The notes under the pieces were generated by a model, which ran no database searches, had not been told where the DNA came from, and worked only from the letters and a program-made list of their open reading frames with translations. Both the position numbers and the translations under genes were made by a program. 64,000 bases of DNA. It comes from Escherichia coli. GTDB lineage: Bacteria > Pseudomonadota > Gammaproteobacteria > Enterobacterales > Enterobacteriaceae. Of the stretch, positions 4,482 to 21,615 are shown in pieces (the first letter of the stretch is position 1; every line of letters starts with the position of its first letter). The stretch lies in assembly GCF_030013205.1 (NCBI RefSeq), contig NZ_CP122649.1, one strand, 5' to 3'.

Positions 4482-4536
4482 GGTGATGCTGCCAACTTAC
4501 TGATTTAGTGTATGATGGTGTTTTTGAGGTGCTCCA

Positions 4537-4812
4537 GTGGCTTCTGTTTCTATCAGCTGTCCCTCCTGTTCAGCTACTGACGGGGTGGTGCGTAACGGCA
4601 AAAGCACCGCCGGACATCAGCGCTATCTCTGCTCTCACTGCCGTAAAACATGGCAACTGCAGTTCACTTACACCGCTTCTCAACCCGGTACGCACCAGAA
4701 AATCATTGATATGGCCATGAATGGCGTTGGATGCCGGGCAACCGCCCGCATTATGGGCGTTGGCCTCAACACGATTTTCCGCCATTTAAAAAACTCAGGC
4801 CGCAGTCGGTAA
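4537..4812 (+). CDS. insA: IS1 InsA
   Basis: 91-aa product [40 protein letters not shown]... Confidence 0.92.
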
Positions 4813-5234
4813 CCTCGCGCATACAGCCGGGCAGTGACGTCATCGTCTGCGCGGAAATGGACGAACAGTGGGGATACGTCGGGGCTAAATCGCGCCAGCG
4901 CTGGCTGTTTTACGCGTATGACAGGCTCCGGAAGACGGTTGTTGCGCACGTATTCGGTGAACGCACTATGGCGACGCTGGGGCGTCTTATGAGCCTGCTG
5001 TCACCCTTTGACGTGGTGATATGGATGACGGATGGCTGGCCGCTGTATGAATCCCGCCTGAAGGGAAAGCTGCACGTAATCAGCAAGCGATATACGCAGC
5101 GAATTGAGCGGCATAACCTGAATCTGAGGCAGCACCTGGCACGGCTGGGACGGAAGTCGCTGTCGTTCTCAAAATCGGTGGAGCTGCATGACAAAGTCAT
5201 CGGGCATTATCTGAACATAAAACACTATCAATAA
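4731..5234 (+). CDS. insB: IS1 InsB reading frame (expressed as an InsAB fusion by -1 frameshift)
   Basis: Track ORF in -1 frame relative to insA, overlapping its 3' end. Confidence 0.85.
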
Positions 5235-5266
5235 GTTGGAGTCATTACCTATTTTTTTTACTACTC

Positions 5267-6073
5267 TCAAATTATTTTAATTCGAGGGAGAGCATAATCC
5301 ATTGTTTTGACGGTTCCATTTTCTTTAATTATATAGTGATGCCAACTATCTGATTTTGCGATTGCATCATCATATATACTTTGTGTAATTGCTAAAAAAT
5401 CTATGTTCATCCATGAAAATATCCCTTCATCAACAAATTCTTTTGATATTAATTCATAGTGACTATTTTTTTTCACTCCAACATATAACTTATATTTTTT
5501 CTCTATATTTTCAGCCAAACTATCAAATGAAATTATTGAGAAGTCACTTCGCTGTTGCCCTCTGATTAGTGCAGTTTTCTGTGTATTATTTTCATATTCT
5601 GATCTACGACCATGAACAAGGACATACTTGAAATTAAATGGATTTCTCCCCATATGTGCCGGTTCTATAAATCCCTGCAATATATTGTTTTTAAAGTGAT
5701 TTCTGTTTGATTCATCATCAAACCAAGCCCTCCATGTGTTCATTTGCTGCAAAGCAAGATTGAAGTCTGCATGAAAAGTTGTAGAGTTGTTTTTAAAATA
5801 TTTCGACGATGGTTTTTCAATTTCAACTAATACTACATTCCAGTTATCCGAGCTTTTTGATAAATATACGAAATCAGGTTTATAATCGCTTGATAGAGGC
5901 AACTTTCTAAATACCGTACTGAAGTGAATTCCATGGTTTTGCTCGAATTCTCTTGGTATGAACATTGTATTTTCTTCAAGGTATGTTTGATAAATCTGTT
6001 CATTCTCTTCTCGATCTAGTAATTCAAGATACTCTTTCTTTTTATCGTTTATTTCTTGACCAGTCATATACAT
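5267..6073 (-). CDS. hypothetical protein, 268 aa, AT-rich orphan gene with possible PD-(D/E)xK-like motif
   Basis: Clean 807-bp ORF, about 30 percent GC, between IS1 and the transposase remnant; motif KPDFVYL...VVLVEIEK. Confidence 0.6.
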   Translation of the reverse strand: MYMTGQEINDKKKEYLELLDREENEQIYQTYLEENTMFIPREFEQNHGIHFSTVFRKLPLSSDYKPDFVYLSKSSDNWNVVLVEIEKPSSKYFKNNSTTFHADFNLALQQMNTWRAWFDDESNRNHFKNNILQGFIEPAHMGRNPFNFKYVLVHGRRSEYENNTQKTALIRGQQRSDFSIISFDSLAENIEKKYKLYVGVKKNSHYELISKEFVDEGIFSWMNIDFLAITQSIYDDAIAKSDSWHHYIIKENGTVKTMDYALPRIKII

Positions 6074-6335
6074 AATTTACCATCTTTAAATTTAAGGCTC
6101 TGATTAGATTCATATCTACGCAATAAATTTTACATAGACTTGGTTTGTGGTAAGAAGTCACCGCGAAGCGGTTCGGGGTTCTGTGACACCCGGACTTTAC
6201 CCCGGCTACCCGACGTTTCTCTTTGTATATAATATCATTGAAGTTATTTGCATTTCTCAGAATTTTTTTCAGGCTTTGATTGCATTAACTGCAACACAGC
6301 GCTGCTGGTCAGTGAGTGCGAGGTTTCCGACAAGT

Positions 6336-7009
6336 TCACCTTTTACCAAAGATGGCCTCAGAGCTTCCTTGAAGCTTTATTATGGCTTCAAGCAGGTCAT
6401 CTTCGTTCAGCGAGCGCTGGGATTTGTTGATGCCTGGAGCATGTCGTCTGCGGGAAGGCTCATCTCCTGAAGGTAGCGACTGGGAGCGATTATTGTCCCT
6501 TTTTTTCTGGACCTGGCGGGCAACATCCAATACATGGCCCAGTCTTTTGTTATCAACAATCGCGACAGGATCGACTTCAGACAATCGGTCGTAGGTGGAG
6601 TAGGGCAGTAGCACGCCATTCAACCGCAGTTCCTTATGTCCGTCAGGATAGTGCCAGACATCAATATACTTGCCGATAGCCCTTCTACTGTATTCGCTGT
6701 CTTCAATCAGATAGAGCATTTTGTCATATTGTACGGTCAGACTTTTTGATACACGACGGGGCTCTCGCCAGGTAAATTCCGCATCCAGGTCATCGTCTAA
6801 TGCCAGCGGCCGATGTGCGTTAAAATCATGCAGGGGGGCTTTGGCGAAGCGCCGGTTATAATCCGCCATGTATTCCTCAGCAAATGCATTCGCGGCTTCT
6901 ATCGTACTGATCCCTTTAAGCCTGAGCTCCTTAACCAGCCGGTCCTGAAGTGTCAGGTGGGCGCGTTCCACACGGCCCTTTGCCTGGCTGGTCTCCGCAC
7001 ATAGCGGGG
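6336..7009 (-). pseudogene. 3' half of an integrase-type (rve, ISNCY/IS1202-like) transposase gene interrupted by the IS26-bounded insertion
   Basis: Reading frame is continuous with 24078-24851 once the insertion and one copy of the 8-bp repeat are removed (...NITPL | CAETSQAKGRVERAHL...). Confidence 0.75.
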
Positions 7010-8095
<1,086 letters not shown>

Positions 8096-8207
8096 TACGC
8101 CTATTTTTATAGGTTAATGTCATGATAATAATGGTTTCTTAGACGTCAGGTGGCACTTTTCGGGGAAATGTGCGCGGAACCCCTATTTGTTTATTTTTCT
8201 AAATACA

Positions 8208-8236
8208 TTCAAATATGTATCCGCTCATGAGACAAT
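8208..8236 (+). promoter_or_regulatory. blaTEM promoter (P3-type -35 TTCAAA / -10 GACAAT)
   Basis: TTCAAA, 17-bp spacer, GACAAT upstream of blaTEM. Confidence 0.7.
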
Positions 8237-8265
8237 AACCCTGGTAAATGCTTCAATAATATTGA

Positions 8266-9138
<873 letters not shown>

Positions 9139-9238
9139 CTGTCAGACCAAGTTTACTCATATATACTTTAGATTGATTTAAAACTTCATTTTTAATTTAA
9201 AAGGATCTAGGTGAAGATCCTTTTTGATAATCTCATGA

Positions 9239-9796
<558 letters not shown>

Positions 9797-9813
9797 GGAC
9801 AAGGAGGTGTGCG

Positions 9814-10176
9814 ATGAGCGCCTACACGGTATCGCAACTGGCCCATAACGCTGGGGTGAGCGTACATATCGTGCGCGACTACCTGGTGCGCGGCTTGTTA
9901 CGGCCGGTGGCCTGCACCACGGGCGGCTACGGCGTGTTCGACGATGCGGCCTTGCAACGGCTGTGCTTCGTGCGCGCGGCCTTCGAGGCGGGTATCGGCC
10001 TGGATGCCCTGGCGCGGCTGTGCCGTGCGCTCGACGCAGCGGACGGCGCACAAGCCGCAGCGCAGCTTGCCGTGCTGCGCCAGTTGGTCGAGCGGCGGCG
10101 CGCGGCGTTGGCCCATCTGGACGCGCAACTGGCCTCCATGCCAGCCGAGCGGGCGCACGAGGAGGCATTGCCGTGA
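9814..10176 (+). CDS. merD: MerD co-regulator
   Basis: [40 protein letters not shown]...; AAGGAGG RBS; the track ORF has an upstream extension. Confidence 0.88.
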
Positions 10177-10409
10177 ACGCCCCTGACAAACTGCCGCCCG
10201 AGACGCGCCAACCCGTTTCCGGCTACCTGTGGGGTGCGCTGGCCGTGTTGACCTGCCCCTGCCATCTGCCGATTCTCGCCGCCGTGCTGGCCGGGACGAC
10301 CGCCGGTGCCTTCCTTGGCGAGCATTGGGGTGTTGCCGCGCTCGCGCTGACCGGCTTGTTCGTTCTGGCCGTAACGCGGCTGCTGCGCGCCTTCCGGGGC
10401 GGATCATGA
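10173..10409 (+). CDS. merE: MerE mercury transporter
   Basis: GTG start overlapping merD stop; 78-aa product [41 protein letters not shown]... Confidence 0.85.
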
Positions 10410-11113
10410 CGAGTTCGCAGCCCGCCGGATGGACGGCGGCCGAGTTGGCGCAGGCGGCGGCGCGCGGACAGCTTGACCTGCATTACCAGCCGCTGGTCGA
10501 TCTGCGCGATCACCGGATCGCTGGCGCGGAAGCGTTGATGCGCTGGCGGCATCCGAGGCTTGGCCTGTTGCCGCCCGGCCAGTTCCTGCCGCTGGCCGAG
10601 TCGTTCGGCCTGATGCCGGAAATAGGCGCGTGGGTGCTGGGCGAGGCCTGTCGCCAGATGCACAAGTGGCAAGGACCGGCATGGCAACCGTTCCGTCTTG
10701 CCATCAATGTGTCCGCCAGCCAGGTTGGGCCAACGTTCGACGACGAGGTAAAGCGGGTGCTGGCCGATATGGCCCTGCCCGCCGAGCTTCTGGAGATCGA
10801 ACTGACCGAATCGGTCGCATTCGGCAATCCAGCCCTGTTCGCCAGTTTCGACGCCTTGCGCGCCATCGGCGTGCGCTTCGCCGCCGACGACTTCGGCACC
10901 GGCTATTCCTGCCTGCAACATCTGAAATGCTGCCCCATCACCACATTGAAAATCGACCAATCCTTTGTCGCCAGGCTCCCGGATGATGCCCGTGACCAAA
11001 CTATCGTGCGGGCGGTGATCCAGCTCGCGCACGGGCTGGGCATGGATGTCATTTTCAGAAGACGACTGCACCAGTTGATTGGGCGTAATGGCTGTTGTGC
11101 AGCCAGCTCCTGA
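10406..11113 (+). CDS. urf2: Tn21 urf2 (EAL-domain protein fragment reading into the integron IRt)
   Basis: [50 protein letters not shown]...; ATG overlaps the merE stop (ATGA). Confidence 0.8.
   Translation: MTSSQPAGWTAAELAQAAARGQLDLHYQPLVDLRDHRIAGAEALMRWRHPRLGLLPPGQFLPLAESFGLMPEIGAWVLGEACRQMHKWQGPAWQPFRLAINVSASQVGPTFDDEVKRVLADMALPAELLEIELTESVAFGNPALFASFDALRAIGVRFAADDFGTGYSCLQHLKCCPITTLKIDQSFVARLPDDARDQTIVRAVIQLAHGLGMDVIFRRRLHQLIGRNGCCAASS
11047..11071. repeat. IRt, 25-bp terminal inverted repeat of the Tn402-type integron tni end
   Basis: TGTCATTTTCAGAAGACGACTGCAC followed by the tniA start. Confidence 0.75.
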
Positions 11114-11187
11114 CAGTTCAATATCAGAAGTGATCTGCACCAATCTCGACTATGCTCAATACTCGTGTGCACCAAAGCGAGGTGAGC

Positions 11188-12439
11188 ATGGCGGCGGACA
11201 CCCCACGGATTCCAGAACAAGGCGTGGCCACTCTGCCTGATGAGGCTTGGGAGCGTGCGCGCCGTCGTGCGGAGATCATCAGTCCGTTGGCGCAGTCGGA
11301 GACGGTCGGGCACGAAGCGGCCGATATGGCGGCTCAGGCGCTGGGCTTGTCTCGGCGCCAGGTATACGTTCTGATCCGGCGTGCCCGGCAAGGCAGCGGC
11401 CTCGTGACGGATCTGGTGCCCGGCCAGTCCGGTGGAGGTAAAGGTAAGGGGCGCTTGCCGGAACCGGTCGAGCGCGTCATCCACGAGCTACTGCAAAAGC
11501 GGTTCCTGACCAAGCAGAAGCGCAGCCTAGCGGCCTTTCACCGCGAAGTCACTCAGGTGTGCAAGGCTCAAAAACTGCGAGTGCCGGCGCGCAATACCGT
11601 GGCCTTACGGATCGCTAGCCTTGACCCGCGCAAGGTCATCCGCCGGCGGGAAGGCCAGGATGCCGCTCGTGACCTACAAGGTGTGGGCGGCGAGCCTCCT
11701 GCCGTGACCGCGCCGCTGGAGCAGGTGCAGATAGACCATACGGTCATCGACCTGATCGTGGTCGATGACCGCGACCGGCAACCTATTGGCCGCCCGTACC
11801 TGACCCTCGCCATCGACGTGTTCACCCGCTGCGTGCTCGGCATGGTCGTCACGCTGGAAGCGCCGTCTGCCGTTTCGGTTGGCCTGTGCCTCGTGCATGT
11901 CGCCTGCGACAAGCGCCCTTGGCTGGAAGGACTGAACGTGGAAATGGATTGGCAGATGAGCGGCAAGCCCTTGCTGCTCTACCTAGACAACGCGGCCGAG
12001 TTCAAGAGCGAGGCCCTGCGCCGGGGTTGCGAGCAGCATGGCATCCGGCTGGACTATCGCCCGCTGGGACAGCCGCACTATGGCGGCATCGTGGAACGGA
12101 TCATCGGCACGGCGATGCAGATGATTCACGACGAACTGCCGGGAACGACCTTCTCCAACCCTGACCAGCGCGGCGACTACGATTCCGAAAACAAGGCCGC
12201 CCTGACGCTGCGCGAGCTAGAGCGCTGGCTCACATTGGCGGTCGGCACCTACCACGGTTCGGTGCACAACGGCCTGCTCCAACCGCCGGCCGCGCGCTGG
12301 GCCGAGGCCGTGGCGCGTGTCGGCGTACCGGCCGTCGTCACACGCGCTACTTCGTTCCTGGTCGATTTTCTGCCGATCCTCCGGCGCACGCTGACCCGCA
12401 CCGGCTTTGTCATCGACCACATCCACTACTACGCCGATG
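11188..12439 (+). pseudogene. tniA: tniA (Tn402/Tn5053-family transposase), 3' end truncated by IS26
   Basis: MAADTPRIPEQGVATLPDEAWERARRRAEIISPLAQ...; frame runs into the IS26 terminal repeat at 12440. Confidence 0.85.
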
Positions 12440-13259
12440 GGCACTGTTGCAAATAGTCGGTGGTGATAAACTTATCATCCCCTTTTGCTGATGGAGCTGC
12501 ACATGAACCCATTCAAAGGCCGGCATTTTCAGCGTGACATCATTCTGTGGGCCGTACGCTGGTACTGCAAATACGGCATCAGTTACCGTGAGCTGCAGGA
12601 GATGCTGGCTGAACGCGGAGTGAATGTCGATCACTCCACGATTTACCGCTGGGTTCAGCGTTATGCGCCTGAAATGGAAAAACGGCTGCGCTGGTACTGG
12701 CGTAACCCTTCCGATCTTTGCCCGTGGCACATGGATGAAACCTACGTGAAGGTCAATGGCCGCTGGGCGTATCTGTACCGGGCCGTCGACAGCCGGGGCC
12801 GCACTGTCGATTTTTATCTCTCCTCCCGTCGTAACAGCAAAGCTGCATACCGGTTTCTGGGTAAAATCCTCAACAACGTGAAGAAGTGGCAGATCCCGCG
12901 ATTCATCAACACGGATAAAGCGCCCGCCTATGGTCGCGCGCTTGCTCTGCTCAAACGCGAAGGCCGGTGCCCGTCTGACGTTGAACACCGACAGATTAAG
13001 TACCGGAACAACGTGATTGAATGCGATCATGGCAAACTGAAACGGATAATCGGCGCCACGCTGGGATTTAAATCCATGAAGACGGCTTACGCCACCATCA
13101 AAGGTATTGAGGTGATGCGTGCACTACGCAAAGGCCAGGCCTCAGCATTTTATTATGGTGATCCCCTGGGCGAAATGCGCCTGGTAAGCAGAGTTTTTGA
13201 AATGTAAGGCCTTTGAATAAGACAAAAGGCTGCCTCATCGCTAACTTTGCAACAGTGCC
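12440..13259 (+). mobile_element. IS26 copy 2 (820 bp, Tnp26 with G at position 184)
   Basis: Terminal repeats GGCACTGTTGCAAA; position-184 codon is GGC, unlike copies 1 and 3. Confidence 0.95.
12503..13207 (+). CDS. tnp26: IS26 transposase Tnp26
   Basis: Same 234-aa product as the other copies except residue 184. Confidence 0.95.
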   Translation: MNPFKGRHFQRDIILWAVRWYCKYGISYRELQEMLAERGVNVDHSTIYRWVQRYAPEMEKRLRWYWRNPSDLCPWHMDETYVKVNGRWAYLYRAVDSRGRTVDFYLSSRRNSKAAYRFLGKILNNVKKWQIPRFINTDKAPAYGRALALLKREGRCPSDVEHRQIKYRNNVIECDHGKLKRIIGATLGFKSMKTAYATIKGIEVMRALRKGQASAFYYGDPLGEMRLVSRVFEM

Positions 13260-13519
13260 CATTTATGAATGTTCCTGTTATGGCTTATGTTCAAGAAAGC
13301 ATTGCCCCTGAAATGATGGGCAAGGTGTTTTCCCTTTTGATGACCGCCATGACTCTTTCTATGCCGATAGGCTTACTTGTTGCAGGTCCGGTTGTTGAGG
13401 TTATAGGTGTTAATACATGGTTTTTCTGGTCTGGTGTTGCGTTGATAGTAAACGCTGTTCTCTGCCGCATTCTGACACGACGCTATGACAAAGTAACAAT
13501 GAAACCGCAAGTGGACTGA
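13260..13519 (+). pseudogene. mef(B): 3' remnant (260 bp) of macrolide efflux MFS gene mef(B), truncated by IS26
   Basis: Hydrophobic MFS C-terminus abutting IS26; matches the known IS26 / mef(B) remnant / sul3 arrangement. Confidence 0.55.
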
Positions 13520-13664
13520 AAAAAGGACCGGGTTGATGATAATTTGTAGTGGTGAGCTTCTGGGAGTACAAAACAAAGTGCTCAAAATTGTCGGGCTCAT
13601 GGCGTTTAACGGTATTAATTTCGCTTATAATAATCTTTCTATAATAGCCTAAAGGAGAATATCT

Positions 13665-14528
13665 ATGATACCTAATAGCGAAAATAAAAGAGTATGGTTT
13701 ATTACCGGAGCAAGCAAGGGGCTTGGCTATGCTTTTACATGCGCCGCCTTGAAAGCCGGGGATAAAGTTGTTGCAGTTGCAAGGACTATCGATAATTTGG
13801 CGAAGCTAGAAGAAACATATCAAGAGAGCTTACTGCCATTAAACCTCGATGTTACAGATAGGGAGGCTGTTTTTTCTACGGTTGAAACAGCAGTTAAACA
13901 TTTCGGTAGGCTTGATATTGTTGTTAATAATGCGGGTATCATGACTATGGGTATGATTGAAGAACTAAACGAATCCGATGCTCGGAAACTAATGGACACA
14001 AACTTTTTTGGAGCTCTTTGGGTTTGTCAGGCAGTGATGCCCTATTTGAGGTCGCAGCGTTCTGGACATATCATACAGATTACAAGCATTGGCGCTATTA
14101 TCTCGGGTCCGATGTCTGGTATTTACAGTGCAAGTAAATTTGCGCTGGAAGGAATGAGTGAAGCCTTAGCAAAAGAAGCGGAACATTTCGGAGTGAAACT
14201 CACTATGGTGGAACCAGGAGGATATTGGACAGATTTATACACTTCGATGAGTTACAGCAATCCATTAGATTCATACGGTACACTGCGCGATGAGCTGGCG
14301 AAACAGTATTCCGAAGATTCGGTCGATAGTGATCCTTCCTTGGCAGCGGAAGCCCTTATGAAATTAGTAGCCAGCAATAATCCGCCTTTGAGGCTTATCC
14401 TTGGCAGCATGGTATACGATTTGGCGATGGATACCTTAAAAGCACGGATGGCTACCTGGGAAGAATGGGAAGCTGTTAGCCGTGCATCAGAAAAGGCTAT
14501 TCCTGCACCGGAGAGATATGGAGTATAA
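13665..14528 (+). CDS. SDR-family short-chain dehydrogenase/reductase
   Basis: 287 aa; glycine-rich NAD(P)-binding motif FITGASKGLG, NNAG, catalytic Y..K (YSASK). Confidence 0.75.
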   Translation: MIPNSENKRVWFITGASKGLGYAFTCAALKAGDKVVAVARTIDNLAKLEETYQESLLPLNLDVTDREAVFSTVETAVKHFGRLDIVVNNAGIMTMGMIEELNESDARKLMDTNFFGALWVCQAVMPYLRSQRSGHIIQITSIGAIISGPMSGIYSASKFALEGMSEALAKEAEHFGVKLTMVEPGGYWTDLYTSMSYSNPLDSYGTLRDELAKQYSEDSVDSDPSLAAEALMKLVASNNPPLRLILGSMVYDLAMDTLKARMATWEEWEAVSRASEKAIPAPERYGV

Positions 14529-14565
14529 TACCAAACATGGTTTTTGAGGCAAGGACGAAACTATC

Positions 14566-14811
14566 ATGAAAATTGAAATTATGGAATATAACCCGGATTG
14601 GACAAAGAATTTTGAAGAAGAGAAAATAAAATTGCTCCATTTTTTCGGTTCTCATGCCGTAGCCATTGAACATATCGGAAGCACGGCGATACCCAATCAA
14701 CGGGCGAAACCGGTTATAGATATATTTATTGGCGTTTCGCCTTTTGCTGAACTACCTTTTATCAGCGCATTTTTAATGCAAAGGAGTATCACCACACTCC
14801 GACAGATATGA
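14566..14811 (+). CDS. GrpB-family-like small ORF (probably a truncated fragment)
   Basis: 81-aa ORF with GrpB-like N-terminus; too short for a full GrpB protein. Confidence 0.4.
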   Translation: MKIEIMEYNPDWTKNFEEEKIKLLHFFGSHAVAIEHIGSTAIPNQRAKPVIDIFIGVSPFAELPFISAFLMQRSITTLRQI

Positions 14812-15279
14812 CAGGCAGATATTTGTTTGCAAAATATACAAATGAAGTTTGGACCCATAATCTTCTTGCTTTGGTGTAGGTATAATACCCAAAAACGAAG
14901 TTTATGCGGAACAGGATAACACCTCGAAATCGGAGTTTATATGGCTTCGTGGGGGAGTTATGTGTTTGAGCTTTGTCGCATTAACGCGAATCAGGGGTTG
15001 ACGGCAGAAATAGACTGGAATTACACTTCTTGGAGTCGGCGTTGCCGGAAAATTCTGATTGGATTAGTTGTTCGGGGTGCGAAAACAGTCGTAGTTCGGG
15101 GAAAAAACCGAATTTTGACCCAAAACCGCGAAAAACTCGAAATGACAGTTCCTATCAGTTTTCATAATGAATTAAAACAAAAAAATTAGGCTGCAAAGAT
15201 AGGGAAAATGTGTCAATTTGCGTAAGTGATAATTAGTCAATTAAGATAAATGCTACTTTTGTAATCAAAGCAAAATGAT

Positions 15280-16071
15280 ATGAGCAAGATTTTTGGAATC
15301 GTAAATATAACCACCGATAGTTTTTCCGATGGAGGACTTTATTTAGATACAGATAAGGCAATTGAGCATGCTCTGCATTTGGTTGAAGATGGAGCAGATG
15401 TGATTGATTTGGGAGCCGCTTCCAGTAATCCTGATACAACTGAAGTGGGCGTTGTGGAAGAAATCAAAAGACTCAAACCTGTCATTAAGGCTTTAAAAGA
15501 AAAAGGCATTTCTATTTCTGTTGATACATTTAAACCTGAGGTTCAGAGTTTTTGCATAGAACAAAAGGTTGATTTTATTAATGATATTCAAGGTTTTCCT
15601 TATCCTGAGATTTATTCAGGCTTGGCAAAGTCAGATTGCAAACTTGTGTTGATGCACTCCGTTCAGCGAATTGGTGCAGCTACTAAAGTTGAAACGAATC
15701 CGGAAGAGGTTTTTACTTCCATGATGGAATTTTTTAAAGAAAGAATTGCTGCTTTAGTTGAGGCTGGTGTAAAGCGTGAACGAATTATTCTTGATCCGGG
15801 TATGGGCTTCTTTTTAGGCTCTAATCCAGAAACATCTATTCTTGTTTTGAAGCGTTTCCCTGAAATTCAAGAAGCTTTTAATTTGCAAGTAATGATTGCA
15901 GTGTCACGGAAATCATTCTTAGGTAAAATAACTGGAACCGATGTGAAATCTCGTTTAGCACCAACTCTTGCAGCAGAAATGTATGCATACAAAAAAGGTG
16001 CAGATTATCTCCGCACCCATGATGTTAAGTCTTTATCAGATGCCTTGAAAATATCCAAAGCCCTAGGTTAG
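15280..16071 (+). CDS. sul3: sulfonamide-resistant dihydropteroate synthase Sul3
   Basis: 263-aa product MSKIFGIVNITTDSFSDGGLYLDTDKAIEHALHLVEDGADVIDLGAASSNPDTTEV...; typical qacH-IS440-sul3 context. Confidence 0.85.
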   Translation: MSKIFGIVNITTDSFSDGGLYLDTDKAIEHALHLVEDGADVIDLGAASSNPDTTEVGVVEEIKRLKPVIKALKEKGISISVDTFKPEVQSFCIEQKVDFINDIQGFPYPEIYSGLAKSDCKLVLMHSVQRIGAATKVETNPEEVFTSMMEFFKERIAALVEAGVKRERIILDPGMGFFLGSNPETSILVLKRFPEIQEAFNLQVMIAVSRKSFLGKITGTDVKSRLAPTLAAEMYAYKKGADYLRTHDVKSLSDALKISKALG

Positions 16072-16317
16072 TTTTATTTTTTTAGCTTTCTAAATGAATA
16101 TGCTATACTTGCTCTGAAGTTGTGTTGGCGTACTTGACTTAGGTCTGGATCTTTCGAACTGTTACTAAGAGGGTAATCATAGCCAAACATAAACTGGAAA
16201 TGTCCTAATTCTAAACCTGTTCCAATACCTACACTATAATCAAGAGGACTTAAACTTCCATCACTTCCAAAAGGTTTTGTGTACTTCTCTTGAGTTTTCG
16301 TAGCTAAATAGTAGTGT

Positions 16318-17004
16318 TTGTTGGTAAATCCAAATAATCCAATATTCAATCTTGCGACCGGGAAAGTCCTCTTGAAAGTACCACAAGTTCGCGGGATGGA
16401 GTTTTATCCCAGCTGCATCGAGAAAGGCATGCGCAGTGAGCGTGCTCTCAAGCTCGCCATCGCCGAAATGTATGTCAAAGGAGTAAGTACCCGCAGGGTC
16501 TCGGATATCGTCGAAATTCTTTGTGGCACCGAAGTCAGCTCGTCCCAGGTCAGCAGGCTGGCAAAGGAGCTCGATGAAGAGATTACGTCTTGGAAGGCGC
16601 AGCCTGTCGGACAGATTCAATACTTGGTACTTGATGCGACCTATGAATCGGTTCGCGTCGGTTCCCATGTGGTCAAGCAGGCGCTTCTAGTGGCTATTGG
16701 CGTTGATTACAGCGGGAATCGGCATATTCTTGACGCCGAAGTCGCGAACAGTGAGGCAGAGGTAAACTGGCGTTCCTTTCTCGAGGGTCTCGTACGACGA
16801 GGGATGCACGGCCTGCGAATGATCACCAGTGATGACCACTCAGGACTGCGCGCGGCAATCGATGCTGTCTTCCCTGGAATTCTGTGGCAACGCTGCCAGT
16901 TTCATCTGCAGCAGAATGCCCACTCCTACGTCACGAAAAAAGATGAGATCCCGCTGATAGCCGCTGATATTCGGAAGGTGTTCAATCGGAATATGTCAAG
17001 ATAG
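16318..17004 (+). pseudogene. IS256-family transposase fragment (IS440-like), N-terminus missing
   Basis: C-terminal DDE region ...ERALKLAIAEMYVKGVSTRRVSD...WQRCQFHLQQNA...; fragment length only. Confidence 0.55.
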
Positions 17005-17250
17005 TTTATGCCAGATTTTTGAGAGGTTTGCATCAAGCAGCCTTCGAAAGAGGACGGCATGACATTGAGACCGGCAAGGCGTCGTAGATACGCACTTTCC
17101 CAGTACGCCACCGTAAGGGGTTTTTCTCTTTGGCAGCAAGAATGGTTTGGTTTCTTTTTTCCTCGGCGCCGTAGGCGTCCGACTAACACCTGAATTAAGC
17201 CGCGCCGCGAAGCGGCGTCGGCTTGAATGAACTGTTAGATGCCAGCCCGA

Positions 17251-17583
17251 TCAATGTGCGCTGACCTTGGATAGCAGATTTAGAACGGCGACGCCACTAA
17301 CGATAAGTCCCATGCCAACGAACGCCCACAAGTCTAGTTTCTGGCCATGGAAGATCCAAGCGATAGCTGCCACAAGTACGATGCCGAGGCCAGCCCAAAC
17401 AGCATAAGCAATGCCGACCGGGATGGACTTGAGTGCGAGAGAGAGGAAATAGAACGCAAGCCCGTAGCCAGCCACAACTACAACAGAAGGAACTAACTTG
17501 GTGAATCCATGGCTGGACTTCAGTGCGGAAGTTGCGACGACCTCACCAAATATTGCAATAGCCAGAAAGAGCCAGTTCTTCAC
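17251..17583 (-). CDS. qacH: SMR-family quaternary ammonium compound efflux protein (qacH/qacL type)
   Basis: 110-aa product from GTG start [24 protein letters not shown]...; four TM segments. Confidence 0.75.
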
Positions 17584-17752
17584 GTGCAATCTCCTCTACG
17601 GTATGAAGGATAAATAGTGGTGGCTATGAGTTGCCAAAAACAGTCTTGCGGCTGTCGATTTTCTGTGAGCATACGCAACGCCAAATCTGGCATCTAACGC
17701 TTGAGTTAAGCCGCGCCGCGAAGCGGCGTCGGCTTGAACGAATTGTTAGACA

Positions 17753-18544
17753 TTATTTGCCGACTACCTTGGTGATCTCGCCTTTCACGTAGTGAACAAA
17801 TTCTTCCAACTGATCTGCGCGGGAGGCCAAGCGATCTTCTTCTTGTCCAAGATAAGCCTGTCTAGCTTCAAGTATGACGGGCTGATACTGGGCCGGCAGG
17901 CGCTCCATTGCCCAGTCGGCAGCGACATCCTTCGGCGCGATTTTGCCGGTTACTGCGCTGTACCAAATGCGGGACAACGTAAGCACTACATTTCGCTCAT
18001 CGCCAGCCCAGTCGGGCGGCGAGTTCCATAGCGTTAAGGTTTCATTTAGCGCCTCAAATAGATCCTGTTCAGGAACCGGATCAAAGAGTTCCTCCGCCGC
18101 TGGACCTACCAAGGCAACGCTATGTTCTCTTGCTTTTGTCAGCAAGATAGCCAGATCAATGTCGATCGTGGCTGGCTCGAAGATACCTGCAAGAATGTCA
18201 TTGCGCTGCCATTCTCCAAATTGCAGTTCGCGCTTAGCTGGATAACGCCACGGAATGATGTCGTCGTGCACAACAATGGTGACTTCTACAGCGCGGAGAA
18301 TCTCGCTCTCTCCAGGGGAAGCCGAAGTTTCCAAAAGGTCGTTGATCAAAGCTCGCCGCGTTGTTTCATCAAGCCTTACGGTCACCGTAACCAGCAAATC
18401 AATATCACTGTGTGGCTTCAGGCCGCCATCCACTGCGGAGCCGTACAAATGTACGGCCAGCAACGTCGGTTCGAGATGGCGCTCGATGACGCCAACTACC
18501 TCTGATAGTTGAGTCGATACTTCGGCGATCACCGCTTCCCTCAT
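17753..18544 (-). CDS. aadA1: aminoglycoside 3''-adenylyltransferase AadA1
   Basis: 263-aa product MREAVIAEVSTQLSEVVGVIERHLEPTLLAVHLYGSAVDGGLKPHSDIDLLV... Confidence 0.9.
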   Translation of the reverse strand: MREAVIAEVSTQLSEVVGVIERHLEPTLLAVHLYGSAVDGGLKPHSDIDLLVTVTVRLDETTRRALINDLLETSASPGESEILRAVEVTIVVHDDIIPWRYPAKRELQFGEWQRNDILAGIFEPATIDIDLAILLTKAREHSVALVGPAAEELFDPVPEQDLFEALNETLTLWNSPPDWAGDERNVVLTLSRIWYSAVTGKIAPKDVAADWAMERLPAQYQPVILEARQAYLGQEEDRLASRADQLEEFVHYVKGEITKVVGK

Positions 18545-18636
18545 GATGTTTAACGCCTGAGCTCAGCCGACCGAAACCGCGTAGCGGTTTTGGGTCGGCT
18601 GCAGCGATTTGTTGGGCGATAGCTTGCCACATTCTC

Positions 18637-19893
18637 TCAACGATTGGGATTTGATGTACTTTCCGCACTTTGTAGCGCGACCACATCATGCTCCCCCTGG
18701 CCGCGAGAGCCCTTCACTCGGGAAACACAAGACAGACCGAGCACGACTGTTGCAAGGGTCAAACAGTACACGACAACCGGCCAAGCCGTGTTGCGCGGCA
18801 ACAGCGAAATGATCAACGTTCCGATGCTTCCTAGCAGTACACCGCCCAAGCAGAAGTAGACTGCCGTGACCGTTCCAGCAACATGGTCGAATCCTCGAAG
18901 AGCGCCATTGGGCGCCACAGATACCGCTGTGGCGACACCAATACCCACTAGCCACATTGGAGCAATAAAGCCTAACACGGACTGCAAAGCCCATATTTCG
19001 GTGATGGCAAGCAATACTGCTCCAGCTATCAGGCATCCCATTCCCATTCGCAAGACACTTGGGCTGCCCCACTTGGGTATCACACGCCCCATAAAACGAG
19101 CCGTAAACACCATGGCAATTGCCACTGTGGCGAACAGCAGGCTGAAGCCAAGCTGAGACACACCTTGCCTGCCCATCATTAGTCCGGGCGCAATGGAGAA
19201 AAAGACGAAGAAGCTACCCATTCCAGCGGCGTAACACAACGTGTACAACCAGAAGTTCAGGCACTTAACGGGGAGTAGCAGCTGCGACCATTGCAAGCCC
19301 GCAACTCGTTGCACCCGGGTTTCAGGCCAGAATCGCCACGCTGCTGCAGATGCAGCGATCATGCCCAAACCTAGAAACGCAAAGATAGCCCGCCACCCAA
19401 GCCACATGTCGACGAGCGCTCCGAGCAATGGGCCTACCGCCGGGACCATGGCCAGCATGGATCCGAGTATGCCGTAAATGACATTACTTTCCTCGCGACC
19501 TGCGTAAATGTCACGTACTGTTGCAAATGTGGAAACAAGGCACGCCGAGGCACCACAAGCCTGAAGAATCCGAAGCCCCAGAAAGACTTCAGCCGATGAC
19601 GTAAGAGCGAGGCCCATTGACGCCACAACGTAGGCGAGGCCACCTCCCAGTAGAACGGGGCGGCGCCCCAGTCGGTCCGATAGCGGTCCAAACAAGAGCT
19701 GACCGGCACCAATCATGACCAAGTACGTTGTCAGCGTAAGCTGAATTGTGCTCGCTGTCGTACCAAGCGCGTTTGGCATAAACGGCACTGCTGGCAAGTA
19801 CATGTCCATGCCGAGTGATGCCAATAAATCGAACGGTGATAACAACAACACCGTGGCGGCAAGGGAGTACCGCCAACTAAAGTTTTTTGAGCT
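18637..19893 (-). CDS. cmlA1: chloramphenicol efflux MFS transporter CmlA1
   Basis: 419-aa product from GTG start (V)SSKNFSWRYSLAATVLLLSPFDLLASLGMDMYLPAVPFM...; the track ORF includes a 16-codon leader. Confidence 0.85.
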   Translation of the reverse strand, partial: SSKNFSWRYSLAATVLLLSPFDLLASLGMDMYLPAVPFMPNALGTTASTIQLTLTTYLVMIGAGQLLFGPLSDRLGRRPVLLGGGLAYVVASMGLALTSSAEVFLGLRILQACGASACLVSTFATVRDIYAGREESNVIYGILGSMLAMVPAVGPLLGALVDMWLGWRAIFAFLGLGMIAASAAAWRFWPETRVQRVAGLQWSQLLLPVKCLNFWLYTLCYAAGMGSFFVFFSIAPGLMMGRQGVSQLGFSLLFATVAIAMVFTARFMGRVIPKWGSPSVLRMGMGCLIAGAVLLAITEIWALQSVLGFIAPMWLVGIGVATAVSVAPNGALRGFDHVAGTVTAVYFCLGGVLLGSIGTLIISLLPRNTAWPVVVYCLTLATVVLGLSCVSRVKGSRGQGEHDVVALQSAESTSNPNR

Positions 19894-20157
19894 CACGAAA
19901 CCATCTCCTTGAACAAAGGATTTGGCGGCGCTCCCGTAGAGCAAAAGGATTCATGAGAACGCCGCAACAACCGAAAAATGAAGGTTGCTGCGGCTTACTT
20001 GTCTGCGTTCTTGGAAGTGCTCATCTGCTGACTATCTCATGATTGAATTTGAATCGTAACAACTTTCAAGCAACTCTGCAAGGAGCCTTATTGTGCGCCC
20101 AACGCCGGAGTTAAGCCGCCGCGCGTAGCGCGGTCGGCTTGAACGAATTGTTAGACA

Positions 20158-20949
20158 TCATTTACCAACTGACTTGATGATCTCGCCTTTCACAAAGCGA
20201 ATAAATTCTTCCAAGTGATCTGCGCGTGAGGCCAAGTGATCTTCTTTTTGTCCCAGATAAGCTTGCTTAGCTTCAAGTAAGACGGGCTGATACTGGGCAG
20301 GTAGGCGTTTTATTGCCCAGTCGGCAGCGACATCCTTCGGCGCGATTTTGCCGGTTATTGCGCTGTACCAAATGCGGGACAACGTAAGCACTACATTTCG
20401 CTCATCGCCGGCCCAGTCGGGCTGCGAGTTCCATAGCTTCAAGGTTTCCCTCAGCGCCTCGAATAGATCCTGTTCAGGAACCGGGTCAAAGAATTCCTCC
20501 GCTGCCGGACCTACCAAGGCAACGCTATGTTCTCTTGCTTTTGTAAGCAGGATAGCTAGATCAATGTCGATCATGGCTGGCTCGAAGATACCCGCAAGAA
20601 TGTCATTGCGCTGCCATTCTCCAAATTGCAGCTCGCGCTTAGCCGGATAACGCCACGGGATGATGTCGTCATGCACGACAAGGGTGACTTCTATAGCGCG
20701 GAGCGTCTCGCTCTCGCCAGGGAAAGCCGAAGCCTCCATAAGGTCATTGAGCAATGCTCGCCGCGTCGTTTCATCAAGCTTTACGGCCACAGTAACCAAC
20801 AAATCAATATCGCTGTATGGCTTCAGGCCGCCATCCACTGCGGAGCCGTACAAATGCACGGCCAGCAACGTTGATTCCAGATGGCGCTCAATGACGCTTA
20901 GCACCTCTGATAGTTGGTTCGAAATTTCGATGGTCACCGCTACCCTCAT
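20158..20949 (-). CDS. aadA2: aminoglycoside 3''-adenylyltransferase AadA2
   Basis: Product MRVAVTIEISNQLSEVLSVIERHLESTLLAVHLYGSAVDGGLKPYSDIDLLV... Confidence 0.9.
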   Translation of the reverse strand: MRVAVTIEISNQLSEVLSVIERHLESTLLAVHLYGSAVDGGLKPYSDIDLLVTVAVKLDETTRRALLNDLMEASAFPGESETLRAIEVTLVVHDDIIPWRYPAKRELQFGEWQRNDILAGIFEPAMIDIDLAILLTKAREHSVALVGPAAEEFFDPVPEQDLFEALRETLKLWNSQPDWAGDERNVVLTLSRIWYSAITGKIAPKDVAADWAIKRLPAQYQPVLLEAKQAYLGQKEDHLASRADHLEEFIRFVKGEIIKSVGK

Positions 20950-21006
20950 GATGTCTAACACCAGAATTAAGCCGCGCCGCGAAGCGGCGTCGGCTTGAAT
21001 GACTTG

Positions 21007-21615
21007 TTAGCGCCCACCTGCGACGCCAACCTCTTGCCACTGATAGTACTGCTTAGTAGCAATGGCCAGCATATCCAGGTCCTCCGGCGTGTCTCCGTAC
21101 GCGTAGATGGTCGGATATGTCGCCAGGTCGTAGCGCTCACGGACCAAGCGAGCCTTCTCCGTCAAGACGCACTGCCGCCCTTCATAGCGGCCCGTTAGGA
21201 TTCCGTCCGACTGTTGCAAGGAAGAACAGATGAGCTCAACGCCGTGCGAGTCGCACCACGGCTCCAAGTAAGCCTCAAGTCCGCCGGAAACAACGACAAC
21301 CTTGTGCCCCTGCGCTTTGTGCCATGCGATGCGCTGCATTGCCTCGCCGCGGAGGGTATTGGGCAGGTAGCTCTGAGCGAAGTCACGACCTTGGGCCTCC
21401 AGGACCGAGGCCGGGATGCCGCTGTAAGCGAAGCGAACGATGACGCGACGGATCAGGGTGCCAGACAAGATCCCAATCTTATACCCAAGCACGAGCGGCG
21501 CCAGAAGCAGTTGTCCCACAAGCAGTCGACGTCGGCTCACGGACCGCCGCACAAAATCCGGCATCGTCTCGCGAGTGGTAATTGTGCCATCGAAGTCAAA
21601 GAGTGCGAGAGACAT
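21007..21615 (-). CDS. psp: HAD-family phosphatase cassette gene (psp)
   Basis: 202 aa, N-terminal DxDGT motif (LFDFDGTIT); sits between estX and aadA2 as in sul3-linked arrays. Confidence 0.7.
   Translation of the reverse strand: MSLALFDFDGTITTRETMPDFVRRSVSRRRLLVGQLLLAPLVLGYKIGILSGTLIRRVIVRFAYSGIPASVLEAQGRDFAQSYLPNTLRGEAMQRIAWHKAQGHKVVVVSGGLEAYLEPWCDSHGVELICSSLQQSDGILTGRYEGRQCVLTEKARLVRERYDLATYPTIYAYGDTPEDLDMLAIATKQYYQWQEVGVAGGR

What the first reader, a model, noticed from the sequence alone, without database searches (positions are those of the whole stretch)
5267..6073. AT-rich orphan gene with nuclease-like motif between IS1 and a split transposase
A clean 268-aa ORF of about 30 percent GC, far below every neighbour, sits alone between IS1 and the transposase remnant. 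Its N-terminal third has a PD-(D/E)xK-like arrangement (KPDFVYL ... VVLVEIEK), as seen in restriction-like and single-gene defence nucleases. The context looks like horizontally acquired cargo. The motif assignment is weak and family membership is unknown.
Basis: inference. Interest (0 to 1): 0.5.

Follow-up and report, generated by a model that had tools for sequence, protein, structure and literature searches.

The report
Known minimal Shedu anti-phage nuclease gene
The AT-rich orphan gene is a real, intact copy of a known single-gene bacterial anti-virus nuclease (a "minimal" Shedu), already named in public databases and already tested against phages, so it is ordinary, although it arrived as cargo inside a jumping gene that is now wrecked.

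Summary

The window is identical over its first 9 kb to RefSeq NZ_CP122645.1, where this gene is already called "Shedu immune nuclease family protein". GenBank BAI39103.1 is identical to residues 37-268 of this protein. It was reported in 2025 to protect E. coli from T4, P251 and T7.

Three minor points go beyond the annotation:
- An 80-aa C-terminal domain has no recognisable relative.
- The gene is the passenger of an IS1202-family insertion sequence that targets Xer/dif sites. Here IS1 and a 17-kb IS26-bounded insertion have disabled that element.

The parts
5267..6073 (-). sduA-type gene: minimal (type II / Type 2) Shedu nuclease, 268 aa including the stop codon at 5267-5269. RefSeq starts it two codons later, at 6067.
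   Evidence: ORF. PADLOC SduA PDLC00378 E 1.7e-115 over residues 1-267. RefSeq WP_223201583.1 'Shedu immune nuclease family protein' at the same coordinates of NZ_CP122645.1. The orthologue P0017 begins 'MYI', so M1 rather than M3 is the conserved start.
5516..6007 (-). DUF4263 / SduA_C nuclease core, residues 23-186. Motif I is E25 (5999-6001) with Q29. Motif II is D67 (5873-5875). Motif III is E84 (5822-5824) and E86 (5816-5818). Motif IV is Q110 (5744-5746). K57 (5903-5905) is a candidate relocated lysine.
   Evidence: Pfam PF14082 E 1.1e-24. Profile alignment to 8ti9_E maps E25/D67/E84/E86/P88/Q110 onto B. cereus E204/D249/E264/K266/P268/Q295 (residue numbers from PMC10441436).
5270..5515 (-). 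C-terminal domain of about 80 aa (residues 187-268), absent from B. cereus Shedu and conserved within this clade. Function unknown; a candidate regulatory or sensor module.
   Evidence: Full-length coverage in about 120 homologues of about 267 aa. The domain modelled alone has pLDDT 88.8. No Pfam match. No PDB fold match; best Foldseek E is 2.3.
6074..6158 (-). 85-bp AT-rich leader that belongs to the cargo and contains the ribosome-binding region (AAAGATGG, 6 nt before the ATG). No strong sigma-70 consensus found.
   Evidence: Sequence read. Homology to the same IS backbone carrying a different cargo (pAPEC-1) begins at 6159. The promoter scan found no minus-strand site upstream of the ATG.
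6162..6195 (.). One copy of a 35-nt GC-rich repeat (CGCGAAGCGGTTCGGGGTTCTGTGACACCCGGAC). In the intact element this repeat brackets the Shedu cassette on both sides. The downstream copy is deleted in this window.
   Evidence: Direct repeat at L017 4944-4978 and 5896-5930, 94% identical. Single copy in the window, none expected by chance. No Rfam match and no unusual fold.
6336..7009 (-). 3' fragment (about aa 237-465) of the IS1202-family ('ISNCY') transposase gene of the element that carries the Shedu gene.
   Evidence: tblastn against the intact pHCM1 transposase WP_000974326.1. RefSeq pseudogene 'ISNCY family transposase, missing N-terminus'.
7010..24077 (.). 17-kb resistance region bounded by IS26 copies (7010-7829 and 23258-24077) and inserted into the transposase gene. 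An 8-bp target duplication lies at 7002-7009 and 24078-24085.
   Evidence: IS26 copies and the overlap of pHCM1 positions 10803-10810 at both junctions. IS26 terminus GGCACTGTTGCAAA at 7010.
24078..24921 (-). 5' fragment of the transposase gene (aa 1-244, 24078-24809) plus the left end of the IS. The terminus TGT is at 24921 and the 20-nt IR motif TGGCTCATTAGGAATGTCCA is at 24873-24892.
24925..24952 (-). dif-like Xer recombination site (ATTTAACATAA-TCCATC-TTATACGCACT) abutting the left IS end, 3 nt from the XerC arm. This is the target of the IS.
   Evidence: The same arrangement occurs at five other copies. The Serratia site is the reverse complement of the E. coli dif sequence as I recall it; that dif sequence was not checked with a tool.
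4482..5249 (+). IS1 (768 bp). It replaces about 180 bp of the carrier IS that contained the terminator hairpin, the internal dif-like sequence, the second 35-nt repeat and the right inverted repeat. It also truncates tetC on its other side.
   Evidence: IS1 termini read. Comparison with the intact copy L017 4819-5000. RefSeq annotation.

Best explanation
The gene encodes a minimal Shedu immune nuclease. This class is called type II by Loeff et al., Type 2 by Gu et al. and 'Type I' by Zhang et al.

Shown here: the protein consists of a DUF4263 PD-(D/E)xK-fold nuclease core (residues about 23-186) with no N-terminal sensor domain, followed by an uncharacterised 80-aa C-terminal domain. It stands alone as a one-gene system.

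Inferred mechanism: like the characterised Shedu enzymes, it assembles through its nuclease domains (a homotetramer is predicted for the class) and cuts invading phage DNA with a divalent-metal site. That site is built from E25 (motif I), D67 (motif II), E84 and E86 (motif III) and Q110 (motif IV). In this clade the canonical motif III lysine is replaced by an invariant glutamate. The general-base or lysine role is then probably taken by E86 itself, as in BamHI, or by the clade-specific K57 at the end of strand beta-1 next to D67. With no N-terminal sensor, self/non-self control probably comes from low expression, from the C-terminal domain, or from a host factor.

Shown here: the gene reached this plasmid as the passenger of an IS1202-family (ISAba32-subgroup) insertion sequence that inserts beside Xer/dif sites. 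In this window the element can no longer move, because its transposase gene is split by an IS26-bounded insertion and its right end was removed by IS1. The Shedu gene itself is intact.
For: Family:
- PADLOC SduA matches full length, E 1.7e-115. Pfam SduA_C E 1.1e-24.
- 848 cluster representatives match at E<=1e-3, mostly 260-290 aa.
- AF2 pLDDT 94.3, pTM 0.91.
- A profile of distant relatives hits 8ti9_E at E 6.6e-4 and aligns all four motifs.

Active site: E25, D67, E84, E86 and Q110 are each kept in at least 54 of 57 (E25 in all 57) sequences down to about 25% identity.

Selection: dN/dS 0.055-0.085.

Single-gene system: there is no shared neighbour in Serratia, Edwardsiella, Vibrio, Enterobacter, Aeromonas or Acinetobacter. 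One Vibrio copy sits beside genes with Gabija-like domains.

Function: BAI39103.1, identical to residues 37-268 and from the 100% identical locus in pO111_1, conferred resistance to T4, P251 and T7 in E. coli (PMC12577705). Mutating the canonical motifs abolishes defence in EcSduA, and motif II is described as required for anti-phage activity in BcSduA.

IS cargo: the inverted repeats enclose transposase plus Shedu, with 5-bp target duplications CATGT (Serratia), ATATT (E. coli NCTC9040) and AACAT (pAPEC-1, different cargo). Transposase remnants also lie upstream of the Edwardsiella and Enterobacter copies.
Against: - I could read no biochemical nuclease assay for any member of this minimal clade. 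Loeff et al. state that the type II mechanism is 'presently unclear'. Zhang et al. report that an enzyme-function predictor scores their minimal class as having lost nuclease function.
- Motif III lacks the canonical lysine.
- The tested accession BAI39103.1 starts at M37 and so lacks motif I (E25/Q29). If that exact ORF was expressed and still protected, the canonical active site may not be required. The paper does not say which sequence was cloned.
- No sigma-70-like promoter was found in the 85 bp upstream. The transposase promoter region is now 17 kb away, so expression from this particular copy is unproven.
- A type II orthologue from Klebsiella was toxic in E. coli.
Confidence: 0.85

Rival explanations
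1. The protein is a DUF4263-fold protein that no longer cuts DNA. It would protect, or act otherwise, by binding DNA or by recruiting a host nuclease.
For: The canonical motif III lysine is replaced by glutamate in the whole clade. Zhang et al. report predicted loss of nuclease function in their minimal class. The protective accession BAI39103.1 lacks motif I as annotated. Loeff et al. suggest host co-factors for type II.
Against: All four acidic or polar metal-site positions (E25, D67, E84, E86) and Q110 are each kept in at least 54 of 57 (E25 in all 57) relatives down to 25% identity. Such conservation is hard to explain without catalysis. E-x-E is a working variant in BamHI (established knowledge, not tested here). 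The predictor result is not an assay.
Confidence: 0.1
2. The gene serves the insertion sequence, for example as a transposition helper or as the factor that directs insertion to Xer sites, rather than serving the host.
For: It sits inside the IS, co-oriented with the transposase, in E. coli, Salmonella, Serratia, Edwardsiella and Enterobacter.
Against: The same IS backbone (transposase 96% identical) carries an unrelated gene in pAPEC-1 and other genes in Cedecea, and still shows a target duplication next to a dif-like site. Orthologues at 77-80% identity in Aeromonas and Acinetobacter have no transposase nearby. Most xrs-targeting IS of this subgroup have no passenger gene (10.1101/2022.12.17.520857).
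Confidence: 0.03
3. On this plasmid the nuclease mainly acts in competition between mobile elements, attacking incoming plasmids or linear DNA, rather than in phage defence.
For: The gene is carried almost only on large conjugative plasmids in E. coli and Salmonella: 24 of 30 E. coli copies are plasmid-borne, and the plasmid records examined are pHCM1 and pO111_1. EcSduA blocks propagation of linear DNA (abstract). The gene is essentially absent from phage genomes.
Against: The only experimental data I found are for phage resistance. This reading does not exclude phage defence.
Confidence: 0.12
4. In this particular window the gene is a silent relic: intact, but no longer expressed because the carrier IS was dismantled.
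For: The transposase 5' half and its promoter are 17 kb away. No consensus promoter lies in the cargo leader. The terminator and right end are deleted.
Against: The ORF and its 85-bp leader are 100% identical to those in at least 58 plasmids and 30 E. coli genomes, with no decay. In pHCM1 and pO111_1 the IS1 junction is the same while the transposase is intact, so the arrangement has persisted. AT-rich leaders often carry weak promoters that a consensus scan misses.
Confidence: 0.15

Closest known systems
BAI39103.1 / WP_223201583.1, the Shedu of IncHI1-type plasmids pO111_1 and pHCM1
   Same: The DNA is 100% identical over 5200-6200. WP_223201583.1 is residues 3-268. BAI39103.1 is residues 37-268. 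BAI39103.1 is reported to protect E. coli from T4, P251 and T7 (PMC12577705).
   Different: Nothing differs in the gene. Only the annotated start codons differ. In this window the neighbouring transposase is additionally split by an IS26-bounded insertion.
Bacillus cereus SduA (PDB 8ti8/8ti9; Gu et al., Type 1A Shedu)
   Different: The B. cereus protein has an N-terminal Whirly-like sensor and a linker that autoinhibit it. The window protein has neither, and instead has an extra 80-aa C-terminal domain. B. cereus K266 corresponds to E86 here.
E. coli SduA (PDB 8ps4/8ps5; Loeff et al., type I Shedu)
   Different: [quoted passage not shown] That clamp is absent here, so the trigger must differ.
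Type II / Type 2 minimal Shedu class (e.g. KpSduA of K. pneumoniae BIDMC47)
   Same: Length about 254-270 aa, with DUF4263 plus short extensions only. This is the class to which the window protein belongs.
   Different: No member has a published mechanism in the papers I could read. KpSduA was toxic in E. coli. I did not test its sequence relationship to the window protein.
BamHI-type PD-(D/E)xK active sites
   Same: An acidic residue at the position of the canonical lysine (E-x-E).
ISKpn21 and other passenger-carrying members of the IS1202 family, ISAba32 subgroup
   Same: Transposase of about 465 aa. Inverted repeats begin with TGT. 5-bp target duplication. The left end lies 5 bp from the XerC arm of a dif-like site. 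One passenger gene lies downstream of the transposase.
   Different: The element here is about 2.66-2.8 kb and its passenger is a Shedu gene. I could not check whether ISfinder has named it. The two IS1202-family papers I searched for passenger or cargo terms do not say what the passengers are.

Membership tests
Shedu (SduA, DUF4263, Pfam PF14082) | Significant match to the DUF4263 / SduA_C profile | tested here: met
   Pfam PF14082 E 1.1e-24, model positions 2-158 of 159. PADLOC SduA PDLC00378 E 1.7e-115, positions 1-284 of 287, plus eight further SduA models.
Shedu (SduA, DUF4263, Pfam PF14082) | PD-(D/E)xK fold closest to solved Shedu nuclease domains | tested here: met
Shedu (SduA, DUF4263, Pfam PF14082) | Catalytic motifs I (E), II (D) and IV (Q) | tested here: met
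   E25, D67 and Q110 align to B. cereus E204, D249 and Q295. They are kept in at least 56 of 57 relatives.
Shedu (SduA, DUF4263, Pfam PF14082) | Catalytic motif III as E-x-K | tested here: inconclusive
   E84 aligns to E264, but the K266 position holds E86, which is invariant in the clade. The neighbouring K87 is variable. This is a property of the whole minimal clade, which all published classifications and PADLOC still file under Shedu. Whether E-x-E is catalytically competent here was not testable.
Shedu (SduA, DUF4263, Pfam PF14082) | Single-gene system without a conserved partner | tested here: met
   Seven different neighbourhoods share nothing except, in four of them, the carrier transposase.
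Shedu (SduA, DUF4263, Pfam PF14082) | Confers phage resistance that depends on the nuclease site | not testable with these tools
   Resistance to T4, P251 and T7 is reported for BAI39103.1 (PMC12577705). I found no active-site mutants for this protein.
Shedu (SduA, DUF4263, Pfam PF14082) | Homotetramer through the nuclease domains | not testable with these tools
   Predicted for Type 2 proteins by Gu et al. as 'data not shown'. No multimer prediction is available here.
Minimal Shedu (type II of Loeff et al.; Type 2 of Gu et al.) | No N-terminal sensor domain; DUF4263 with short extensions only; about 250-270 aa | tested here: met
   The domain starts at residue 23 of 268. Homologues are 260-290 aa with full-length coverage. 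Caveat: the 80-aa C-terminal extension folds as a domain of its own.
IS1202 family, ISAba32 subgroup (carrier element) | Inverted repeats starting 5'-TGT, and a 5-6 bp target duplication | tested here: met
   TGTAG... on the left and TGTCAA... on the right. Duplications are CATGT, AACAT and ATATT in three independent copies. In the window itself the right end is deleted, so no duplication can be read.
IS1202 family, ISAba32 subgroup (carrier element) | Left end abuts the XerC arm of a Xer recombination site at about 5 bp | tested here: met
   dif-like sites with a 6-nt spacer lie next to the left end in the window (24926-24951), pHCM1, Serratia, Edwardsiella, pAPEC-1 and Cedecea. Spacing is 5 nt in Serratia, pAPEC-1 and NCTC9040, and 3 nt in the window and pHCM1.
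IS1202 family, ISAba32 subgroup (carrier element) | Transposase with N-terminal HTH and the family's DDE signature (extra DD, Q after E) | not tested
   HTH_23/28/29/32 hits are recorded on the Serratia orthologue and RefSeq names it 'ISNCY family transposase'. I did not check the DDE signature residues or compare it with named ISfinder entries.
Mrr-like / type II restriction endonucleases and NucS/EndoMS (considered) | Closer profile or fold match than to Shedu | tested here: not met

The most novel reading that the evidence does not exclude
This minimal Shedu clade may be mechanistically distinct from the solved Shedus in two ways. It would have an E-x-E metal site with the lysine supplied from elsewhere (K57), and a fold-orphan C-terminal domain acting as its sensor.

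It may also be one interchangeable payload of a family of Xer-site-targeting IS1202-type insertion sequences. Their cargo slot carries different genes. Those seen here are Shedu, a PADLOC PDC-S32 candidate, and a three-gene set that includes an RDD-family protein. The slot lies between the transposase gene and a conserved internal dif-like sequence. Such elements would deliver defence genes to chromosomal dif and to plasmid multimer-resolution sites.
Probability: 0.4. Interest if true: 0.45.

Novelty: already known. Interest (0 to 1): 0.15.

Why it matters
For the scan, this is a correct call on a gene that public annotation already names, so there is little to gain from it. It does show that sequence reading alone recovered a defence nuclease from composition and a partial motif.

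Three points could interest specialists:
- The published test construct for this very protein carries an annotated start that removes catalytic motif I. Conclusions drawn from it about "ancestral, nuclease-poor" Shedu may therefore rest on a truncated ORF.
- The minimal clade replaces the canonical lysine with glutamate, which bears on the still-unknown mechanism of type II Shedu.
- Multidrug-resistance plasmids of the pHCM1/pO111_1 (IncHI1-type) group in Salmonella Typhi and E. coli carry this phage-defence gene next to their resistance islands. That matters for phage therapy and for understanding why these plasmids persist.

Tried and rejected
- NCBIfam gave no match at E<=1.
- Single-sequence and close-family profile searches of PDB sequences found no Shedu. 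Only a profile of distant relatives reached 8ti9.
- The weak Pfam hits DUF6826 and SPC25 were ignored as sub-threshold overlaps.
- The C-terminal domain was modelled alone. It has no Pfam match and no PDB fold match, so its role stays open.
- The promoter and terminator scan found nothing convincing upstream of the gene. Rfam found nothing. The GC-rich repeat does not fold better than shuffles (z -0.87).
- My first search for terminal repeats in pHCM1 failed because the right end is deleted there. The ends were found only after comparing Serratia, pAPEC-1 and NCTC9040.
- I first read the 80%-identical 170-bp matches in about 400 plasmids as the IS end. They are the transposase-to-cargo spacer of related IS copies.
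- Wang et al. 2023 (J Virol, pmid 37306585 / PMC10308915), the first test of this protein, is not held in the library.
- No paper in the library links Shedu with IncHI1.
- The phage genome collection holds essentially no homologue.
- The Edwardsiella copy has an irregular left junction (9 extra nt) and an internally deleted transposase. I did not resolve it.
Full report
**Observation.** The ORF is present as described, on the minus strand at 5267-6073, starting with ATG and encoding 268 aa. Its GC content is 31.4%. The neighbours are far higher: IS1 53.6%, the transposase fragment 51.6%, IS26 52.1%, and the whole window 48%. A stop-free run of 269 codons was never reached in 2000 shuffles of this AT-rich segment (mean 69, maximum 204). 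dN/dS against the Serratia, Enterobacter and Aeromonas orthologues is 0.055-0.085. So this is a selected protein-coding gene and not a chance ORF.

**Surroundings.**
- IS1 is a complete 768-bp copy at 4482-5249. It ends 17 bp after the stop codon of the ORF, and on its other side it truncates tetC of a Tn10 remnant.
- Upstream of the ORF, after a 262-bp spacer, lies the 3' part of a transposase gene (6336-7009), cut by IS26 at 7010.
- The missing 5' part (aa 1-244) is at 24078-24809, next to another IS26 copy.
- The two junctions share an 8-bp duplication. A 17-kb IS26-bounded resistance region therefore inserted into the transposase gene. "Split transposase" is correct.

**Identity of the window.** The first 9 kb of the window are identical to RefSeq NZ_CP122645.1, plasmid unnamed2 of pig E. 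coli ETEC4079, at the same coordinates. RefSeq already annotates 5267-6067 there as "Shedu immune nuclease family protein" WP_223201583.1.

**What the gene is.**
- The PADLOC model SduA PDLC00378 matches the protein from end to end at E 1.7e-115, and eight other SduA models also match. Pfam SduA_C (PF14082, formerly DUF4263) covers residues 23-186 at E 1.1e-24.
- A search of 1.8 billion cluster representatives found 848 relatives at E<=1e-3, mostly 260-290 aa. The closer relatives cover the full length.
- An AlphaFold model built on 47 homologues is very confident (pLDDT 94.3, pTM 0.91).
- The protein has no N-terminal domain before the nuclease core. That places it in the minimal class: type II of Loeff et al., with mean length 254 aa, and Type 2 of Gu et al., 2,286 of 7,687 Shedu proteins.

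**It is already known and already tested.** The 1-kb region is 100% identical in pHCM1 of Salmonella Typhi CT18, in pO111_1 of E. coli O111:H- 11128, and in more than 50 other plasmids. It occurs in 30 of 5,426 complete E. coli genomes, always at >=99% identity, with 24 copies on plasmids. The exact 268-aa and 266-aa sequences are in the protein collection. Their 90% cluster of 305 members includes BAI39103.1 of pO111_1, which equals residues 37-268. Zhang et al. 2025 (PMC12577705) expressed "BAI39103.1" in E. coli BL21(DE3) and report resistance to T4, P251 and T7, in line with Wang et al. 2023. They use it as the type example of their minimal "Type I" Shedu. I could not read Wang et al..

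**Active site.** Gu et al. define the motifs as I (E204), II (D249), III (E264 and K266) and IV (Q295) in B. cereus Shedu. Loeff et al. give E226, Q230, D269, E283, K285 and Q314 in EcSduA. Alanine substitutions of the catalytic residues they tested abolish defence, and Q230A reduces it.

Close-family searches did not reach the solved structures by sequence. A profile of 57 distant relatives hit chain 8ti9_E at E 6.6e-4. That alignment is ungapped and has high posterior probability around motif III. It gives these correspondences:

| Window protein | B. cereus Shedu |
|---|---|
| E25 | E204 |
| D67 | D249 |
| E84 | E264 position |
| E86 | K266 position |
| P88 | P268 |
| Q110 | Q295 |

Conservation agrees with this mapping. 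E25, Q29, D67, E84, E86 and Q110 are invariant in 47 close relatives and are kept in at least 54 of 57 distant ones. K87 varies in the distant set (K 22, D 9, R 7, S 7, N 3, H 3).

K57 (55 of 57) and K73 (51 of 57) are conserved in the clade but are not matched in the B. cereus protein. K57 ends strand beta-1 (residues 49-56), and D67 precedes strand beta-2 (68-73), across an 11-residue hairpin loop. I therefore infer that K57 is the better candidate for a relocated lysine. I could not measure distances, because model coordinates are not exposed. An acidic residue at the lysine position is known from BamHI; I recall this and did not test it.

**Start codon.** Residues 14-36 are conserved across the family, including the invariant E25, Q26, Q29 and E33. 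One orthologue begins MYI, so M1 is the conserved start. A purine-rich stretch, AAAGATGG, lies 6 nt upstream. BAI39103.1, annotated from M37, therefore lacks motif I. The Zhang paper does not state which sequence was cloned for this protein. If it was the 232-aa ORF, either protection does not need the canonical site or the reported activity is a lower bound.

**C-terminal domain.** The B. cereus protein ends where Pfam's domain ends. The window protein continues for about 80 residues, which are conserved in the clade. Modelled alone, this part folds confidently (pLDDT 88.8). It has no Pfam match and no PDB fold match (best E 2.3). Its function is open. I propose it as a regulatory or sensor module by elimination only.

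**Context in other genomes.** No partner gene is conserved.
- The Enterobacter copy (94% identical) lies on an IncFII-type contig among toxin-antitoxin genes.
- The Aeromonas copy (80%) is isolated among housekeeping genes.
- The Acinetobacter copy (77%) is next to a RES-domain gene.
- One Vibrio copy (48%) is next to an OLD-TOPRIM ATPase plus a UvrD helicase, which are the domains of a Gabija-like pair.
- The gene is essentially absent from phage genomes.

**The carrier element.** A 465-aa "ISNCY family" transposase gene, or a remnant of it, lies directly upstream of the Shedu gene in the same orientation in five settings:
- pHCM1 and pO111_1;
- Serratia ureilytica (two copies; transposase 79% identical);
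- Edwardsiella tarda (Shedu only 55% identical);
- Enterobacter;
- the E. coli NCTC9040 chromosome.

A 20-nt motif, TGGCTCATTAGGAATGTCCA, occurs upstream of the transposase and, inverted and doubled, downstream of the Shedu gene. The ends read TGTAG... and ...CTTTGACA. Three independent copies have 5-bp target duplications that flank the whole unit:
- CATGT in Serratia (2656 bp);
- ATATT in NCTC9040 (2761 bp, with Shedu and transposase identical to the window's);
- AACAT in pAPEC-1.

In pAPEC-1 the transposase is 96% identical, but the passenger is an unrelated gene of the STM4504/CBY_0614 family that matches the PADLOC candidate PDC-S32 at E 4e-9. In a Cedecea plasmid the passengers are three other genes. 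The backbone homology stops at window position 6158/6159, 85 bp upstream of the Shedu ATG. So the Shedu gene is an exchangeable passenger of the IS and not part of its machinery.

**Target of the element.** Next to the left end of every copy lies a dif-like Xer site. In Serratia it reads ATTTAACATAATATACATTATGCGCAC, which is the reverse complement of E. coli dif as I recall that sequence. In the window it is at 24925-24952. In NCTC9040 the element sits next to hipBA with its left end 5 bp from a GGTGCGCATAA arm. This is the published behaviour of the ISAba32 subgroup of the IS1202 family: TGT ends, 5-6 bp duplications, the left end 5 bp from the XerC arm, and some members (ISKpn21 and others) carrying passenger genes (10.1101/2022.12.17.520857 and PMC10132070). 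The carrier is therefore also a known kind of element. In the two IS1202-family papers I searched for passenger or cargo terms I did not find what the passengers are, nor any mention of a defence-gene passenger.

**State in this window.** The element is dead here. Its transposase is split by the IS26-bounded insertion. The last 180 bp or so are replaced by IS1; they held the terminator hairpin, an internal dif-like sequence, the second copy of a 35-nt repeat and the right inverted repeat. The Shedu ORF and its leader are untouched. Whether it is transcribed is not known, and no consensus promoter was found.

**How it most likely works.**
- Shown: the family, the fold, the conserved metal-site residues, the stand-alone organisation, the passenger status, and a reported phage-resistance phenotype for a GenBank entry identical to residues 37-268.
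- Inferred: metal-dependent cleavage of phage DNA by an oligomer formed through the nuclease domains; an E-x-E site with help from K57; and control through the C-terminal domain, through expression level, or through a host factor.

The published view is that the type II mechanism is unclear, and Gu et al. suggest such enzymes may be constitutively active. I put 0.85 on the overall statement. I put about 0.97 on family membership and roughly 0.7 on the nucleolytic mechanism.

**Verdict.** The leftover value lies in three side points: the motif III variant, the probably truncated published construct, and the Xer-targeting IS that uses the gene as swappable cargo.

Noticed in passing
window 6159-7009 and 24078-24952; L017 4819-7579; L003 4275-6930; L015 2379-5179: The Shedu gene is the passenger of an IS1202-family (ISAba32-subgroup) insertion sequence of about 2.7 kb. 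It has TGT-ended inverted repeats and 5-bp target duplications (CATGT, ATATT, AACAT). Its left end abuts a dif-like Xer site in every copy examined.
   Followed up: yes
L015 2500-3441 (pAPEC-1); L016 2179-3450 (Cedecea plasmid): The same IS backbone (transposase 96% identical in pAPEC-1) carries other passengers in the same slot. One is an STM4504/CBY_0614-family gene that matches the PADLOC defence candidate PDC-S32 (E 4e-9). Another set has three genes, including an RDD-family protein. The cargo slot seems exchangeable and may favour defence genes.
   Followed up: partly
L017 4914-4938; L003 6812-6836; L015 2473-2497: Each intact IS copy contains an internal dif-like sequence (TTTAGCATAA-5 nt-TTATGCGCAC, spacer one base shorter than dif) between the cargo and a conserved hairpin next to the right end. 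It is in inverted orientation relative to the external Xer site. I did not find it mentioned in the parts of the IS1202 papers I read. It could bear on how these IS find Xer sites or swap cargo. It is deleted in the window.
   Followed up: partly
window 6162-6195; L017 4944-4978 and 5896-5930: In the intact E. coli element a 35-nt GC-rich direct repeat brackets the Shedu cassette. The window keeps only the upstream copy. It is not found around the cargo in Serratia, Edwardsiella or pAPEC-1. No Rfam match and no special fold.
   Followed up: partly
window 5966-6073 (residues 1-36): GenBank BAI39103.1, the accession used in the published phage assays, starts at M37. It therefore omits the conserved N-terminal helices, including catalytic motif I (E25, Q29). 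RefSeq starts at M3, and orthologues support M1.
   Followed up: partly
window 7010-24077: A 17-kb region bounded by IS26 copies in opposite orientation, with a third IS26 at 12440-13259. It carries blaTEM-1, mer and other genes. It is inserted in the IS1202-family transposase gene with an 8-bp target duplication (7002-7009 and 24078-24085).
   Followed up: partly
window 4170-4481: tetC of the Tn10-type tet(B) region is truncated at its 5' end by IS1. In pHCM1 and pO111_1 the same IS1-Shedu junction is instead preceded by catA1, so IS1 has mediated different rearrangements on one side only.
   Followed up: no
L003 and L004 (Serratia ureilytica JAFJAM010000002.1, 149374-162180 and 246316-259122): Two 100% identical copies of at least 6.9 kb end exactly at the right end of the IS. 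They contain ParDE, an integrase, MazE/PIN, the transposase and Shedu. Only one copy has a matching target duplication. This suggests duplication or recombination of a larger island rather than simple transposition.
   Followed up: no
L017 7580-7700 (E. coli NCTC9040 chromosome, next to hipBA): Just outside the left end of the IS, a XerC-arm sequence is followed by a second copy of the IS-internal hairpin plus dif-like sequence, and then by phage or plasmid replication genes. This may be a remnant of another such IS, or of a Xer-integrated element at dif. Unexplained.
   Followed up: no
L006 38-3605: A Vibrio parahaemolyticus orthologue of the Shedu gene lies 2.4 kb downstream of an OLD-TOPRIM ATPase plus a UvrD helicase pair (domains as in Gabija), which suggests a defence island.
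   Followed up: no
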